Shown here one piece after another: positions 59,897 to 64,000 of a stretch of 64,000 nt of DNA. Below the pieces are notes generated by a model. The model ran no database searches. It had not been told where the DNA came from and saw only the letters and a list, made by a program, of their open reading frames with translations. Every line of letters begins with the position of its first letter. Positions within the stretch are counted from its first letter, which is position 1. A program made the position numbers and the translations under genes. The DNA lies in contig JBHPGB010000002.1 of NCBI GenBank assembly GCA_042571085.1, positions 6,796 through 70,795 on the forward strand, written 5' to 3'. Origin of the DNA: Patescibacteria group bacterium. GTDB lineage: Bacteria; Patescibacteriota; Minisyncoccia; Phycocordibacterales; JBHPGB01.

Positions 59897-60160
59897 TCAG
59901 TTTCCAATATCTGATTTTATTTTATTAATTCCACCAACAAAATCTTGAAATATTACTGATGTGCTATCTTTAAGAACTTTAAATGGAGACGGGGTAGATA
60001 TTGTTTCCTCAGCTTGGATTTCTTTTTCTGGAAGCACATGCCCTCGTATTGTCCAAACCCACAAGGAAACAACAACCAACATGCAAACAAAAAGGGTCGC
60101 ATATAATATTCTCCACCGTACGTATTCTGGCTTGTTTTGAATGTTTTGTAAAAAGTTCAT
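59897..60160 (-). CDS. hypothetical single-TM protein (87 aa)
   Basis: ORF with one TM helix. Confidence 0.35.
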   Translation of the reverse strand: MNFLQNIQNKPEYVRWRILYATLFVCMLVVVSLWVWTIRGHVLPEKEIQAEETISTPSPFKVLKDSTSVIFQDFVGGINKIKSDIGN

Positions 60161-60194
60161 TTAATTAGAAAAAGTAAAATGTCTCTTCTTATTC

Positions 60195-60818
60195 TTATAG
60201 TGATTTTAGTACTACAATCTCACCTTCTTTACTCTCCACATCTTTCTTTTTTATCGTAAGTTTGTCTACAGCCTTAAGCGATTCTGATCCGGCTTCTTTC
60301 AAAAACTGTTTCAAAGATTTGTCGTCATAATCCATTGGAATAATGATACTTGGTCCAAGTTTGGTAGATAGCTTGTGAGCCTCTTCTGGTGCAAGTACCT
60401 CACCACCCCCTGTTGGTACAAAAAGAATATCAATACCGTCAAGACCTTCTTTAATTTCATTTGAAAGTTCTGGGGTATTCAATACACCAAGAAATGCAAT
60501 ATTTATATTATCAATCAAAATTGAATAGATGGTATTTATTTTATTTTCCTTTTCGTAAGAAGATTCTGCTCCAAAACCTTTTACAAAAATACCACTCCTT
60601 TCATATTCACCTGGTCCTGTGATCGCAAACGGAACCTTGTCTCCGTATTTCATATCCTCAACACCATTGAAATCAACATGATTAAGAGAAGAGACAGCAA
60701 TATCCGCGCCGAATTTCGCGGCTTTAATTTTTGATTTTTTTCCGACAGGATTAATTGCGACCGTTGTATCGCCTTGTTGGATTTTGAAAAATTGTTTTCC
60801 GTAGTAAGTTATTATCAT
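60195..60818 (-). CDS. MBL-fold metallo-hydrolase
   Basis: Metallo-beta-lactamase fold length and His/Asp metal-ligand blocks (SSLNHVDFNG, VPTGGG, IPMDYDD). Confidence 0.65.
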   Translation of the reverse strand: MIITYYGKQFFKIQQGDTTVAINPVGKKSKIKAAKFGADIAVSSLNHVDFNGVEDMKYGDKVPFAITGPGEYERSGIFVKGFGAESSYEKENKINTIYSILIDNINIAFLGVLNTPELSNEIKEGLDGIDILFVPTGGGEVLAPEEAHKLSTKLGPSIIIPMDYDDKSLKQFLKEAGSESLKAVDKLTIKKKDVESKEGEIVVLKSL

Positions 60819-60990
60819 GGGCTACAGTATATCGTATTTTGTATTCTGTATCCAGTATTAAAAATGTTTATAAATGGCTTGATAAATTTTTAACTAATGT
60901 TATATTTGAATTAGAAATTAATCAGTAAAAAGAATTGTGGTGTACACTGGTGTATACCATACATACCTCCGGATATTTTATTCGGAGAAG

Positions 60991-61057
60991 AAAGGAGGTG
61001 ATCCGAGCCTTGGGGAGCAATGCAAAAACATTGACTCCTTGTATCTACGACTTCACC
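60991..61057 (-). ncRNA. isolated 16S-rRNA 3'-terminus-like segment (h44 3' strand + divergent h45 + anti-Shine-Dalgarno), with no 16S body
   Basis: Minus strand reads GGGTGAAGTCGTAGATACAAGGAGTCAATGTTTTTGCATTGCTCCCCAAGGCTCGGATCACCTCCTTTCT. Compare canonical GGGGTGAAGTCGTAACAAGG...GGATCACCTCCTT. Confidence 0.5.
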
Positions 61058-61135
61058 CTTCCCTTCAACCCTGGGTGCACCTCTTTGAGGTGCACCCATA
61101 GCTTTTTATATAAAATAAACAAGTAGGTGTTGGGG

Positions 61136-61163
61136 TTGACAAATCCTGTGGGTATGCTAAGAT
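61136..61163 (+). promoter_or_regulatory. sigma-70-type promoter of locus B (TTGACA-N16-TAAGAT)
   Basis: TTGACAAATCCTGTGGGTATGCTAAGAT. Confidence 0.5.
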
Positions 61164-61270
61164 ATCCACAGGTTCAGTTAGCGCGAGTAACATTGCTGCT
61201 GACCTAGCGAAGGTTCTGTGGCGACTGCCACAGCCTATATTGCCCTCTAGCCATACAAGGAACCAAGCCT

Positions 61271-61357
61271 ATGATTGTTCTCAATTTCAGTGCCATCGGC
61301 ACTTATCTTGATAATTCTGACACCATCCTGGCCACCGGCATCGTTGCCATCGCCTGA
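61271..61357 (+). CDS. candidate small protein B (28 aa, MIVLNFSAIGTYLDNSDTILATGIVAIA), in-frame paralogue of the locus-A peptide
   Basis: AAGGAA 12 nt upstream. Shares the in-frame blocks GCC ATC GGC, GAC ACC ... ATC ... CTG and terminal GCC TGA with the ORF at 43713-43847. 5'UTRs also homologous (GTTAGC...TTGCTGACC). Confidence 0.3.
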   Translation: MIVLNFSAIGTYLDNSDTILATGIVAIA

Positions 61358-61732
61358 TTGTCTGCCACCGGCGTAGCCCCTAAAGCAGGGCTCTCAAAGA
61401 GCAGTAGCCGTCTGGAAAACAGCTGAACGAAACGCTTGTTTTCCAGCCGGCTGGCCGCAAACCGCCAAATAACCCAAAACAATGCACGGAGGTGCACATG
61501 GGGCTATCGTATTGTACCTAATGGCGCAATGGATTGTGCCTGAACATCTGGTGTTCTACCAATAAAGGATTCGGTAGATGGTGTTCCTCATCAAGCAAAA
61601 GGGGTTTTCTCTGTCACACTAATAAAGCGCCCGTTCGGTGCTTCGCATCAAGATTGAAAGTCACTTGTTCTTCCGAGAATAAAACTTCAAAACTTAAGCA
61701 AATGCAATTTTTACGACAGTGAAAATCTAGCA

Positions 61733-61821
61733 GGACCCGCAGACGTCAAAAACGTCCCGGGTCCTTTTATTTTTTACATGGCTGGCGAGCGAAGCTCGCC
61801 AGCCATTTTTGAACTTTTGAT
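61733..61821 (+). terminator. two consecutive rho-independent terminators ending the locus-B transcript
   Basis: GGACCCGCAGACGTCAAAAACGTCCCGGGTCC followed by a T-run. GGCTGGCGAGCGAAGCTCGCCAGCC followed by TTTTTG. Confidence 0.65.
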
Positions 61822-62080
61822 TTGATGTTTTGGATTTAATATTGTATACTCTCTCCATTAACAGCGGGATTTTAAGATAACACTTTGTCGTCCACAAAAG
61901 GCAGTTTGACAAAGACTCTTGAGATTATTAACTTATCCGCATAAATTAAGCGGATTTTTTTGTGAAAATAAATGGAGTGGGTATTTGAACATACCCGCCA
62001 AATTTTTCTCTCGACAAACTCGAGAAAACTTAGGCGGGTAATATTTTTCTAAACTCACTTCGTTCATTAAGAAAAATATT

Positions 62081-63220
62081 ATGAGCATAGCAGAAACAAT
62101 AAAAGAAAAAGTTGCTGAAAAAATCGGCAAAAAAGATGACGATGAGAAACAAGCCGAAGTCAAAACAAGTGTAATGACTAAGCATATGGCAGATTTGCCT
62201 AATCCACCAGAAGTTGGTGAATTGGTAGACGGTGTAATCGTTGGATTTGGTCGTGGAGCAGTTTATTTAGACTTACCCCCATTTGGCACAGGTATTATAT
62301 ATGGACGTGAGTACATAAATGCGCGCGATGTTGTTAAAAACAGTAATATCGGCGACATGATAACAGCGAAAGTTGTTGATGTAGAAAGCGAAGATGGATA
62401 TATAGAACTATCTTTGAAAGAAGCGCGCCAGGCACTCATCTGGGGTGAAGCTGAATCAGCAATCAAAAACAAAACTCTTCTTGAACTCCCAGTAAAAGAA
62501 GCAAACAAAGGAGGTCTTATTATTGAATGGCAAGGTATCGCAGGATTCCTTCCAGCATCACAGCTTTCAGCAGAACATTACCCACGCGTAGAAGATGGAG
62601 ATAAAGACAAAATTTTATCTGAATTGCGAAATCTTGTTGGACAAAAAATATCTGTCCTTATGATCAACGCAGATCCAAAAGAAGGAAAGCTTATCTTTTC
62701 TGAAAAAGGAATCGTTGATACAGATAAAACAGAAATTATTGAGAAATATTCTGTTGGTGACGATGTTGATTGTGAAGTTACAGGTATTGTGGACTTCGGT
62801 GTATTCCTTAAGATTGAAGATGGTCTTGAAGGACTTGCGCACATCTCAGAACTTGATTGGGGCTTGGTAGAAGATCCAAAACAGCTCGTAAAAGTTGGAG
62901 AAAAAGTGAAAGCAAGAATAATTGAAATCAAAGACAACAAAATTTCTCTATCAATCAAAGCACTTAAACCAAACCCATGGGAAGGTATCGAAAAGAAATA
63001 CAAGAAAGACGATACTGTGGACGGAGTGGTTATTAAATTCAATAAATACGGTGCGCTCGTATCAATTGAAGAAGGTATTGCTGGTCTAGCACATGTTTCA
63101 GAATTTGGAGATGAAGAAAAATTGAAAGCGGCTCTTGAGCTCGGTAAAACATACAAATTCAAAATCTCTTTGTTTGAACCAAAAGAACATAAGATGACCT
63201 TAAGTCTTCAAGCGGAGTAA
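62081..63220 (+). CDS. rpsA: 30S ribosomal protein S1-like (four S1 domains)
   Basis: Repeated S1 OB-fold motifs (GELVDGVIVGF, GDMITAKVVDV, GDDVDCEVTGIV, DDTVDGVVIKF). Confidence 0.8.
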   Translation: MSIAETIKEKVAEKIGKKDDDEKQAEVKTSVMTKHMADLPNPPEVGELVDGVIVGFGRGAVYLDLPPFGTGIIYGREYINARDVVKNSNIGDMITAKVVDVESEDGYIELSLKEARQALIWGEAESAIKNKTLLELPVKEANKGGLIIEWQGIAGFLPASQLSAEHYPRVEDGDKDKILSELRNLVGQKISVLMINADPKEGKLIFSEKGIVDTDKTEIIEKYSVGDDVDCEVTGIVDFGVFLKIEDGLEGLAHISELDWGLVEDPKQLVKVGEKVKARIIEIKDNKISLSIKALKPNPWEGIEKKYKKDDTVDGVVIKFNKYGALVSIEEGIAGLAHVSEFGDEEKLKAALELGKTYKFKISLFEPKEHKMTLSLQAE

Positions 63221-63275
63221 AGACACGAAAAATAAAAAGCGGCTGCCTCTGGCAGCCGCTTTTTATTGCTTAAAT

Positions 63276-63857
63276 TTAATTAAACTTATTTGCCGCTTTC
63301 TCTCTTCCCTCTTTTATAATCATGTCGATTGCCTGCACAGCTTTTGTGGAGATTTCTTTTACAGCCTCTGCTTCGCGCGCGGTGAACTTTCCAAGTACAA
63401 ATCTTGATTGATCGCGTTGCTTTTTAATTTTTCCGAAAATATTTTTTTGCGCCACACCGATGCGCACGCGTGTGAAATTTTTTGTTCCAATATGTTTAAT
63501 AATTGAATCAATACCATTATGTCCACCTGTTCCCTTCCCGTAAGAAATTTTTATTTCTCCGAGGGGTAAGTACATATCATCGTGCACCACGATAAGATTT
63601 TCTACATCAGCATCAGACTTCACAAAATACTTCACAGACTCGCCAGAATTGTTCATATAATTATCTGGTTCTACAAGCACAGCTTCCTTATTGCCAATCA
63701 TATTTTTTACAACAAGAGATTTTGAATACTTATCTGCACTCCAATCAGAAAATCCACGCGCTTCGCGAATGGCATCAAGAACAACACGGCCAACATTGTG
63801 TCGCGTATCTTCGTATTTTTCTTCTGGATTTCCTAAACCAACGATTGTGTAAGTCAT
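63276..63857 (-). CDS. pth: peptidyl-tRNA hydrolase
   Basis: GLGNPEEKYEDTRHNVG, HDD..LPLG, GHNG motifs. Confidence 0.85.
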   Translation of the reverse strand: MTYTIVGLGNPEEKYEDTRHNVGRVVLDAIREARGFSDWSADKYSKSLVVKNMIGNKEAVLVEPDNYMNNSGESVKYFVKSDADVENLIVVHDDMYLPLGEIKISYGKGTGGHNGIDSIIKHIGTKNFTRVRIGVAQKNIFGKIKKQRDQSRFVLGKFTAREAEAVKEISTKAVQAIDMIIKEGREKAANKFN

Positions 63858-64000
63858 ATTAGTACTAGTATACCCAAAGGGCTACCGTTTTGTTCAAATT
63901 TTAATTTGATTACAAAACGCAGTGCTTTAGTGTACAGGTAAAGTATAAAGTATTTAATAAGAATTAGGAAATTAAAATAAAAAAATCAGACCGCCTTTTG

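What the first reader, a model, noticed from the sequence alone, without database searches (positions are those of the whole stretch)
60991..61057. Orphan copy of the 16S rRNA 3' terminus (anti-Shine-Dalgarno included) with no rRNA gene attached
The minus strand carries GGGTGAAGTCGTA...CAAGG...GGATCACCTCCTTTCT. This is the universally conserved h44-3'/h45/anti-SD tail of 16S rRNA, with a replaced h45 hairpin (GGAGTCAATG-TTTTTG-CATTGCTCC).

Nothing upstream resembles a 16S body. It is preceded by a perfect hairpin (GGGTGCACCTC-AAAGA-GGTGCACCC) and sits divergently to the locus-B promoter, with a possible minus-strand -35 TTGTCA.

It could be a relic of an rRNA operon rearrangement. CPR rRNA genes are known to be fragmented or intron-rich. 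It could also be a small RNA presenting an anti-SD mimic, or it could provide an extremely strong SD (AAAGGAGGTGATCC) on the plus strand.
Basis: partly seen in the sequence, partly recalled or inferred. Interest (0 to 1): 0.55.

Follow-up and report, generated by a model that had tools for sequence, protein, structure and literature searches.

The report
Antisense 16S-tail look-alike in small RNA
A 70-base stretch that copies the end of 16S ribosomal RNA is real, but it most likely sits backwards inside a small stand-alone RNA gene, so the RNA made would be complementary to a ribosome's 16S tail, in a bacterial group that seems to have given up that tail.

Summary
Window 60989-61058 (minus strand) reads as the last part of a canonical 16S rRNA: a 13-mer of the h44 3' strand, ACAAGG after a 3-nt insertion, a foreign hairpin where h45 should be, then a 16-mer anti-SD tail. 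It matched once in the window and in 0 of 100 shuffles. No 16S body is attached. An independent contig spans the site.

The predicted signals lie on the other strand. A sigma-70-like promoter (60879-60906) and an intrinsic terminator (61072-61098) bracket a unit of about 195 nt on the plus strand. Both recur in the only close relative found (L083), with compensatory changes.

The predicted RNA therefore carries the complement of the 16S end, a 16-nt "super-SD", folded into a long hairpin. The nearest precedent is the rreB/rreR small mRNAs of alpha-proteobacteria.

- The genome shows no SD usage.
- 12 of 12 order-type 16S genes examined lack the anti-SD.
- About 17 other genomes of the order carry 13-19-nt tail complements outside long reading frames.

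Expression, the organism's own 16S end and the function are all untested.

The parts
60989..61058 (-). 16S-3'-end look-alike: 13-mer of the h44 3' strand, GAT insertion, ACAAGG, substitute hairpin, 16-mer anti-SD tail. Read on the plus strand it is the complement, AGAAAGGAGGTGATCC ... CCTTGT ... TACGACTTCACCC.
60990..61066 (+). Long imperfect hairpin whose two arms are the tail complement and the h44 complement. This is the core of the predicted small RNA.
   Evidence: Folds. A 176-nt stretch has z-scores of -7.1 (minus) and -6.8 (plus). The hairpin alone gives -27.3 kcal/mol on plus and -31.1 on minus.
60879..60906 (+). Sigma-70-like promoter (TTGATA, 16 nt, TATATT, with a TG extension) predicted to start the small RNA near 60913.
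   Evidence: 10 of 12 matches. The -10 block is conserved in L083.
60936..60987 (+). Two 5' hairpins of the predicted RNA. The second (60967-60987) is kept in L083 with a different upper stem.
   Evidence: Hairpin 2 gives -11.0 (plus) against -7.1 (minus) here, and -12.9 against -6.8 in L083.
61072..61108 (+). Intrinsic terminator: a 12-bp GC-rich stem followed by a T-run.
   Evidence: Conserved in L083 with one U-A to C-G change and a T-run.
61136..61163 (+). It starts a conserved leader and a possible small ORF.
   Evidence: Conserved in L083.
61271..61357 (+). Possible 28-codon ORF (MIVLN...). Its start is conserved in L083, with some synonymous changes.
   Evidence: read directly from the alignment.
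60195..60818 (-). Flanking gene: MBL-fold hydrolase (Lactamase_B_3), divergent from the small RNA.
   Evidence: E 4e-21.
62081..63220 (+). Flanking gene: ribosomal protein S1 (four S1 domains), about 1 kb downstream on the plus strand.
   Evidence: E 2e-36.

Best explanation
The 70-mer is the antisense face of the central hairpin of a small, independently transcribed unit on the plus strand, about 195 nt long (roughly 60913-61108). The RNA made is therefore not a copy of the 16S tail but its complement. It has a 16-nt stretch complementary to a canonical 16S 3' end (a 'super-SD'). It also has 6-nt and 13-nt stretches complementary to ACAAGG and to the h44 3' strand. These are held together in one long hairpin, with a foreign stem-loop opposite the place of h45.

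Shown by computation only:
- the sequence match to 16S;
- the predicted promoter and terminator on the plus strand, and their conservation in one relative;
- the fold;
- the absence of a usable short ORF.

Inferred:
- that the unit is transcribed as predicted;
- that it acts as an RNA;
- that it acts, like the rreB/rreR small mRNAs of alpha-proteobacteria, by pairing with the 3' end of a 16S rRNA in a 30S subunit. The A-rich 5' edge would serve as a seed and the hairpin would then open.

Which ribosome it would meet is open. The organism's own 16S is not in the assembly. Its relatives' 16S genes lack the anti-SD.
For: 1. The match to 16S is far beyond chance.

2. Plus-strand signals.
- The promoter at 60879-60906 scores 10 of 12 with a TG extension. 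The terminator is at 61072-61098 with a T-run. Across 60700-62200 the only minus-strand promoter-like site is the one in front of the MBL gene.
- No other plus-strand gene lies upstream for this terminator to end.

3. Conservation in L083, the only relative with a homologous upstream region. It was 1 of 80 loci kept from 235 relatives of the MBL protein, at 83% amino-acid identity.
- L083 keeps the -10 block, hairpin 2, a GGAGAA..GGAGG purine run, CCTTGTAT and the terminator.
- The stems carry compensatory changes.

4. Strand of the structure.
- Hairpin 2 is more stable on the plus strand in both genomes. The terminator is more stable on the plus strand in L083 and equal on both strands here.
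- G.U pairs on the plus strand would be A-C mismatches on the minus strand.

5. No usable ORF.
- The only start codon 3-15 nt after GGAGG is a TTG at 11 nt, and its frame has no stop before the terminator.
- No short ORF is shared with L083.

6. Precedent. rreB is a 165-nt transcript with its own promoter and terminator and a 17-nt complement to the 16S 3' end. That complement is mostly buried in a hairpin, and the RNA co-sediments with 30S (PMC5711450: abstract and sections 13, 18 and 19 read).

7. Recurrence in the order.
- The 13-mer tail was found 43 times in 39 of 301 genomes, against 2 hits for the reversed control.
- I treated 18 of these hits, this one included, as non-coding.
- 10 of the 18 have a promoter-like site upstream on the SD strand, against 2 of 18 on the other strand.
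- 14 of the 18 have no start codon 3-15 nt after GGAGG.
Against: - There are no expression data. No RNA run was listed, so the strand rests on consensus scans and a single relative.
- The long hairpin itself is slightly more stable on the minus strand (-31.1 against -27.3 kcal/mol).
- In L083 the two 16S-like arms are not kept. Only ACAAGGTAGC and a GCCTCC remain, and the body of the unit gives no BLAST match. The 16S complementarity is therefore not conserved between the only two members.
- The genome shows no SD signal upstream of 359 long ORFs. G falls to 8-13% at -12 to -4.
- 12 of 12 order-type 16S ends examined lack CCTCC. Three genomes (G009, G039, G049) carry both such a 16S and a tail complement. 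A partner in the cell's own ribosome may therefore not exist.
- The other 17 units share nothing with this one beyond 13-19 nt.
- Two of the 18 units (L050, L061) lie inside long open frames and may be coding.
- Terminator-like sites downstream are only 10 of 18 on the SD strand against 6 of 18 on the other strand.
Confidence: 0.45

Rival explanations
1. Decaying relic. A piece of canonical-type 16S rDNA, foreign or ancestral, was captured in this intergenic small-RNA locus. Its likeness to 16S has no present function.
For: - The h44 13-mer is of the common bacterial type seen in L060. It is not the type of this order's 16S genes, which read GGGA(G/C)TAAGTCGTA.
- L083 keeps a different scrap of canonical 16S (ACAAGGTAGC) at the matching place. 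This would fit an older and longer fragment that has decayed differently in the two lines.
- The likeness is not conserved between the two relatives.
Against: - The alignable non-coding blocks of the two genomes are 74-83% identical and the body of the unit is unalignable. Yet 13+6+16 positions here are perfect, which neutral decay would not leave. This is my inference, not a formal test.
- h45 is missing between two perfect flanks, so a single captured fragment does not explain the layout.
- No 16S gene with the GAT insertion exists among the genome contigs records. The 17-mer has 12 matches there, and 0 of 12 are in a 16S context.
Confidence: 0.25
2. Minus-strand RNA. A small RNA that presents a mimic of the 16S 3' end (decoding-site strand plus anti-SD tail) acts as a decoy for something that binds or cuts that region.
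For: - The order and spacing of the 16S elements are those of the sense strand.
- The hairpin is a little more stable on the minus strand.
- A weak terminator-like hairpin lies downstream on the minus strand.
Against: - No minus-strand promoter-like site lies upstream. TTGTCA is the complement of a plus-strand -35.
- The upstream hairpin has its T-run on the plus side.
- Hairpin 2 is weaker on the minus strand in both genomes, and the terminator is weaker there in L083.
- In the fold the tail is paired, not presented.
- L083 lacks the tail.
- No CsrA gene was found when I tested one candidate binder.
Confidence: 0.1
3. A true, very strong SD that drives translation of a short peptide on the plus strand. 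This would be an rre-type small mRNA in the strict sense.
For: - There is 16-nt complementarity, as in rreB and rreR.
- A TTG lies 11 nt after GGAGG.
- A 54-codon GTG frame (60937-61101) reads the motif as KGGDP.
Against: - The TTG frame has no stop before the terminator.
- The 54-codon frame starts far upstream of the SD and runs into the terminator stem.
- No frame is conserved with L083, whereas RNA stems are.
- The genome shows no SD usage.
Confidence: 0.07
4. A separately encoded 3' piece of a fragmented 16S rRNA, or the far exon of a 16S gene split by a very long insertion.
For: - 16S genes of relatives carry insertions, with matches spanning up to 2.9 kb.
- In G049 a tail look-alike lies 1.6 kb downstream of the 16S gene on the same strand, ahead of tRNA-Ile.
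Against: - Relatives' 16S genes already contain the h44 3' strand and h45, then continue in a conserved AT-rich tail. Nothing is missing for this piece to supply.
- No 16S piece lies on the 99-kb contig.
- The genome shows no SD usage.
- The transcription signals are on the other strand.
Confidence: 0.02
5. Assembly artefact or chimera at this point.
For: The genome is a 21-contig metagenome bin.
Against: - One X1 contig runs through 60195-61444 with 2 differences.
- L083, from another data set, has the same flanks in the same order.
Confidence: 0.02

Closest known systems
rreB / rreR small mRNAs of alpha-proteobacteria (Hahn et al. 2016, PMC5711450; abstract and sections 13, 18, 19 read)
   Same: - Small stand-alone unit (165 nt there, about 195 nt here) with a sigma-70-type promoter and a terminator.
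[quoted passage not shown]
- Most of that stretch is buried in a hairpin, with a few 5' bases free.
- The genomic context is not conserved between groups.
   Different: - rre units carry a conserved 14- or 18-codon ORF whose GTG start overlaps the end of the complementary stretch. None is present here.
- Here the complementarity extends to ACAAGG and the h44 3' strand.
- The hosts of rre have a canonical anti-SD and use SD. This genome shows no SD usage and its relatives' 16S genes lack the anti-SD.
- Sequence homology to rre was not tested, because no rre sequence was in hand.
3' minor domain of bacterial 16S rRNA (Rfam RF00177)
   Same: The minus strand reproduces the h44 3' strand end, ACAAGG and the anti-SD tail, in the right order.
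   Different: - There is no body.
- h45 with its GGAA loop is replaced by an unrelated 10-bp hairpin.
- There is a 3-nt insertion.
- It is not detected by the SSU model even at E<=10.
- The signals point to transcription of the other strand.
Ordinary Shine-Dalgarno sites
   Same: It contains AAGGAGGTGA.
   Different: - The complementarity is 16 nt long.
- No start codon lies at working distance with a closed frame.
- The genome has no SD signal.
Loss of the anti-SD in a Parcubacteria subgroup (Tsurumaki et al. 2022, PMC9297842; passages read)
   Same: The relatives' 16S genes lack CCTCC at the 3' end, as that paper reports for about half of Parcubacteria.
   Different: In the passages I read, that paper does not mention tail look-alikes or tail complements elsewhere in such genomes.

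Membership tests
Bacterial SSU rRNA gene or pseudogene (RF00177) | Match to the SSU covariance model over a body of the molecule | tested here: not met
   There is no SSU match in the window at gathering score. There is none in 60000-64000 at E<=10, and none in the whole assembly.
Bacterial SSU rRNA gene or pseudogene (RF00177) | h44 3' strand, ACAAGG linker and anti-SD tail in order | tested here: met
   with a 3-nt insertion.
Bacterial SSU rRNA gene or pseudogene (RF00177) | Helix 45 with its GGAA-type loop between linker and tail | tested here: not met
   The hairpin here has a different stem and a TTTTTG loop. Compare the real ends.
rre-type small mRNA (rreB/rreR) | [quoted passage not shown] | tested here: inconclusive
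   This is met against a canonical end such as that of L060 or L067. The organism's own 16S end is unknown, and the relatives' ends would not pair.
rre-type small mRNA (rreB/rreR) | Stand-alone short unit with its own promoter and terminator | tested here: met
   Prediction only. Both signals are conserved in L083.
rre-type small mRNA (rreB/rreR) | Conserved short ORF whose GTG start overlaps the end of the complementary stretch | tested here: not met
rre-type small mRNA (rreB/rreR) | Binding to 30S subunits | not testable with these tools
   This needs sedimentation or a pull-down.
rre-type small mRNA (rreB/rreR) | Sequence homology to rreB or rreR | not tested
Functional Shine-Dalgarno site | Start codon about 4-12 nt downstream that opens a closed reading frame | tested here: not met
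   A TTG lies at 11 nt, but its frame has no stop before the terminator.
Known small RNAs (SRP RNA, 6S RNA, any Rfam family) | Covariance-model match | tested here: not met

The most novel reading that the evidence does not exclude
Small RNAs carrying 14-19-nt (here 16+6+13-nt) complements to the canonical 16S 3' end may be a maintained class in Parcubacteria-like lineages whose own ribosomes have lost the anti-SD. If so, they would be aimed at ribosomes that are not the cell's own. The target could be a host or neighbour of these presumed episymbionts.

In this element the h44-side arm fits the common bacterial 13-mer. It does not fit the version found in the order's own 16S genes, so the RNA would discriminate non-self from self.
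Probability: 0.05. Interest if true: 0.85.

Novelty: new variant of a known kind. Interest (0 to 1): 0.5.

Why it matters
If the unit is expressed as predicted, it is an rre-like RNA with extended complementarity to the 16S tail, in a lineage that shows no SD-led initiation. That raises a direct question about what such an RNA pairs with.

There are three possible answers, and each is informative:
- This organism's 16S still has the tail. The tail would then be kept for something other than start-site selection.
- The RNA has no partner and is decaying.
- The RNA meets foreign ribosomes.

The question can be tested with one recovered 16S gene and one strand-specific transcript map.

If the element is only a relic, it is a curiosity.

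Tried and rejected
**Dead ends and negative results**
- Genuine 16S of this genome: not in the assembly. The 23S and 5S genes are on contig C8 with their own promoter-like site and nothing 16S-like upstream.
- RNA evidence: no RNA holder was listed.
- Contigs laid on the region: X2 and X3 gave no cover over 60902-61103, so they say nothing about variation in the element.
- Relatives in the held genomes are only at order level. The 1262-nt gap found no homologue of the element in 40 of them.
- Donor search: the 17-mer with the GAT insertion has 12 matches in genome contigs, and 0 of 12 are in a 16S context.
- CsrA decoy idea (a motif recalled from memory resembles the ACAAGGA stretch): no CsrA gene was found.
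- Divergent SRP RNA or 6S RNA: no model match.
- Conserved short ORF: none is shared with L083.
- A wider 'family': the 18 non-coding units share only 13-19 nt. Only this one has 16S likeness upstream of the tail; the other 17 have p>0.09. Two syntenic pairs (after dus: L033/L044; after rmuC: L034/L057) do not align beyond the motif.
- Complementarity to the genome's own 23S: a 14-mer and a 12-mer that are adjacent in the element also occur in the own 23S. Exact matches of 12 nt or more between the genome and the 23S number 408, near my own estimate of the chance level. I leave this as borderline.
- The phylum-wide count was not classified hit by hit, so it gives only the contrast in totals.
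- Supplements of the two papers were not seen. Those of PMC9297842 may list which lineages lack the anti-SD.
- No tool named the organism. 'Parcubacteria-like' is my inference from genome size, the 16S insertions and the passages read.

Full report
**1. The observation**

On the minus strand, window 60989-61058 reads GGGTGAAGTCGTA, GAT, ACAAGG, a hairpin (GGAGTCAATG / TTTTTG / CATTGCTCC), CCAAGGCTC and GGATCACCTCCTTTCT.
- The composite pattern occurs once in the window and in 0 of 100 shuffles.
- The 16-mer occurs once exactly.
- The 90 nt upstream of the tail align to a canonical 16S end taken from locus L060 with a score that 0 of 300 shuffles reach.
- No SSU model matches the window at gathering score. 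None matches 60000-64000 at E<=10, and none matches the whole 637-kb, 21-contig assembly.
- GATCACCTCC occurs 4 times in the assembly, and only here with the tail context.
- A 9971-nt contig of run X1 spans 60195-61444 with 2 differing letters, which argues against a mis-join. X1 may be the source sample.

**2. Surroundings**

The element lies in a 1262-nt stretch without long ORFs (60819-62080). On one side is an MBL-fold hydrolase on the minus strand. On the other is ribosomal protein S1 on the plus strand.

The consensus scan places these signals on the plus strand:
- a promoter at 60879-60906 (TTGATA/16/TATATT, 10 of 12 matches, TG extension);
- an intrinsic terminator at 61072-61098 followed by a T-run;
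- a second promoter at 61136-61163 (TTGACA/16/TAAGAT).

The only minus-strand promoter-like site is the one just ahead of the hydrolase.

**3. Fold**

A 176-nt stretch folds far better than shuffles on either strand (z -7.1 and -6.8).

The 16S-like parts form the two arms of one long hairpin (60990-61066 on the plus strand). The tail pairs with the purine-rich and h44-like arm, and the substitute hairpin sits at the tip. The hairpin alone gives -27.3 kcal/mol on plus and -31.1 on minus, so it does not settle the strand.

**4. The one close relative**

A scan of metagenome contigs with the hydrolase protein gave 235 relatives, of which 80 were kept. Only L083 (83% amino-acid identity) has a homologous upstream region.

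L083 keeps:
- the -10 block of the first promoter;
- a hairpin equivalent to hairpin 2, with a different and compensated upper stem;
- a GGAGAA..GGAGG purine run and CCTTGTAT;
- the terminator, with a U-A to C-G change and a T-run;
- the second promoter, its leader, and the start of a small ORF.

Hairpin 2 is more stable on the plus strand in both genomes. The terminator is more stable on the plus strand in L083 and equal here. This is because G.U pairs on plus would be A-C mismatches on minus.

The two 16S-like arms are not kept in L083. It has ACAAGGTAGC and GCCTCCATTCTCC instead, and the body of the unit gives no BLAST match, while neighbouring non-coding blocks are 74-83% identical.

No short ORF is shared. 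The plus-strand unit is therefore conserved as an architecture, and the 16S likeness is not.

**5. The lineage**
- Relatives in the held genomes are only at order level.
- 12 of 12 order-type 16S 3' ends that I could read lack CCTCC after h45 and continue in an AT-rich tail. The anchor was not found in 3 further loci.
- 3 canonical ends were found in the order (L059, L060, L067). L060 sits at a contig start and looks unlike the others.
- In this genome, 359 long ORFs show no SD signal. GGAG and GAGG occur 0-4 times per position, and G drops to 8-13% at -12 to -4.
- This fits the report that the anti-SD motif is missing in a Parcubacteria subgroup (PMC9297842, passages read).
- In a phylum-wide sample, 159 of 301 genomes hold the 13-mer, mostly once. 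In the order, 39 of 301 do.

**6. The same motif elsewhere in the order**

The 13-mer GGATCACCTCCTT has 43 hits in 39 of 301 genomes, against 2 for the reversed control. One hit is from the unpublished genome G249.

By context:
- 9 hits are the codons of a cyclophilin-type FMIQGGDP motif;
- about 13 are in other long frames;
- 3 are true 16S ends;
- 18 (this one included) I treated as non-coding, although L050 and L061 lie in long open frames.

Among the 18 units:

| Feature | Count |
|---|---|
| Promoter-like site upstream on the SD strand | 10 of 18 |
| Promoter-like site upstream on the other strand | 2 of 18 |
| Terminator-like site downstream on the SD strand | 10 of 18 |
| Terminator-like site downstream on the other strand | 6 of 18 |
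| No start codon 3-15 nt after GGAGG | 14 of 18 |
| Complementarity continues into the CCA(A)G of the canonical end | 7 of 18 |
| A precedes the motif | 13 of 18 |

The units share nothing else. Only the present element has 16S likeness upstream of the tail. Three genomes (G009, G039, G049) hold both a 16S without anti-SD and such a unit.

**7. Comparison with what is known**

The nearest described thing is rreB/rreR (PMC5711450). These are small stand-alone transcripts with 16-17 nt complementary to the 16S 3' end. That stretch is largely buried in a hairpin, and the transcripts bind 30S and are weakly translated from a short GTG-started ORF.

The present unit has the length, the signals, the 16-nt complement and the hairpin. 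It differs in three ways:
- It lacks the ORF.
- It adds complements to ACAAGG and the h44 strand.
- It sits in a genome without SD usage.

I therefore file it as working like an rre RNA, but not as a member of that family.

**8. Origin**

A captured 16S fragment cannot be excluded, but three points weigh against it:
- h45 is absent between two perfect flanks.
- The 35 matching positions are perfect while the rest of the unit has diverged beyond alignment from L083.
- No 16S gene with the GAT insertion was found (0 of 12 matches in a 16S context).

Selection on both arms, or a very recent event in this line only, would each explain the pattern. With two sequences I cannot tell them apart.

**9. 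Verdict**

Best reading, at confidence 0.45: the antisense face of a plus-strand small RNA with a 16-nt extended complement to a canonical 16S tail. Its function is inferred by analogy only.

Rivals:

| Reading | Confidence |
|---|---|
| Relic | 0.25 |
| Minus-strand mimic | 0.10 |
| Translated small mRNA | 0.07 |
| Split rRNA | 0.02 |
| Assembly artefact | 0.02 |

Noticed in passing
window 61976-62079 (just upstream of rpsA); G000 C3:1427-1531, C1:540-636, C14:9120-9200, C3:18553-18599, C1:66941-66994, C3:8156-8216; L083 593-698: A cassette of about 100 nt sits directly before the rpsA start codon. It consists of a GC-rich hairpin, then an AT-rich run ending in AAGAAAAATATT and the ATG. It recurs at 6 or more other places in the genome and in G018 and G030. 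In L083 it lies directly before the hydrolase gene. It may be a portable promoter/leader module in a genome without SD.
   Followed up: partly
16S loci L021-L027, L029, L031, L032, L076, L077: The 16S genes of the order end, after h45, in GGA(A/T)T..TTC instead of the anti-SD. In 10 of 12 a small hairpin follows, TTC(C/A)...(G/T)GAA, with a C-G to A-T switch between genomes. This looks like a conserved structure replacing the tail.
   Followed up: partly
whole genome G000 and 20 relatives of the order: No SRP RNA was found: RF00169 in 0 of 21 genomes, and RF01854 in 0 of 1. No SRP54-type GTPase domain scored above its cut-off except one marginal P-loop match; 4 of 21 genomes had weak matches at E<=0.001. 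No Ffh M domain was found in G000. The controls were found in 12-14 of 14 model genomes. The whole SRP/FtsY pathway may be missing in this order. One literature search listed no paper on this among its first 10 results.
   Followed up: partly
window 61031-61058 (minus strand) and own 23S (G000 C8:4140-7783, positions 587-598 and 683-696): Two adjacent pieces of the element, a 14-mer and a 12-mer one base apart, occur exactly in the organism's own 23S rRNA. There they lie about 85 nt apart and in the opposite order. Genome-wide, such matches are about as common as I would expect by chance (408 of 12 nt or more). The adjacency is only borderline unusual.
   Followed up: partly
window 61445-61836: In the X1 contig these 392 bases are replaced by 197 other bases, so this is a variable segment inside the gap. 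X2 contigs show further joints around 61602-62336.
   Followed up: no
G049 (L164 5800-10000; L041): Gene order is: a 16S gene without anti-SD, then 1.6 kb with three small GC-rich ORFs that do have SD-like sites, then a tail look-alike (AGTCGTAA, hairpin, 13-mer), then tRNA-Ile(GAT) and tRNA-Leu(CAG), and no 23S.
   Followed up: partly
window 61136-61357: The second plus-strand promoter, a leader of about 100 nt and a possible 28-codon ORF (MIVLN...) are conserved in L083 at 74% nucleotide identity, with some synonymous changes.
   Followed up: no
G000 C8:2657-7783: The 23S match spans 3644 nt against a 2925-position model, so it probably holds an insertion. The 23S and 5S genes are unlinked from any 16S gene and have their own promoter-like site upstream.
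   Followed up: no
loci L037, L049, L056, L063, L065, L068, L069, L070, L073: 9 of the 43 hits of the tail 13-mer in the order are the reverse strand of codons for a conserved FMIQGGDP motif in proteins of about 210-270 aa. I take these to be cyclophilin-type isomerases from recall, not from a family search.
   Followed up: no
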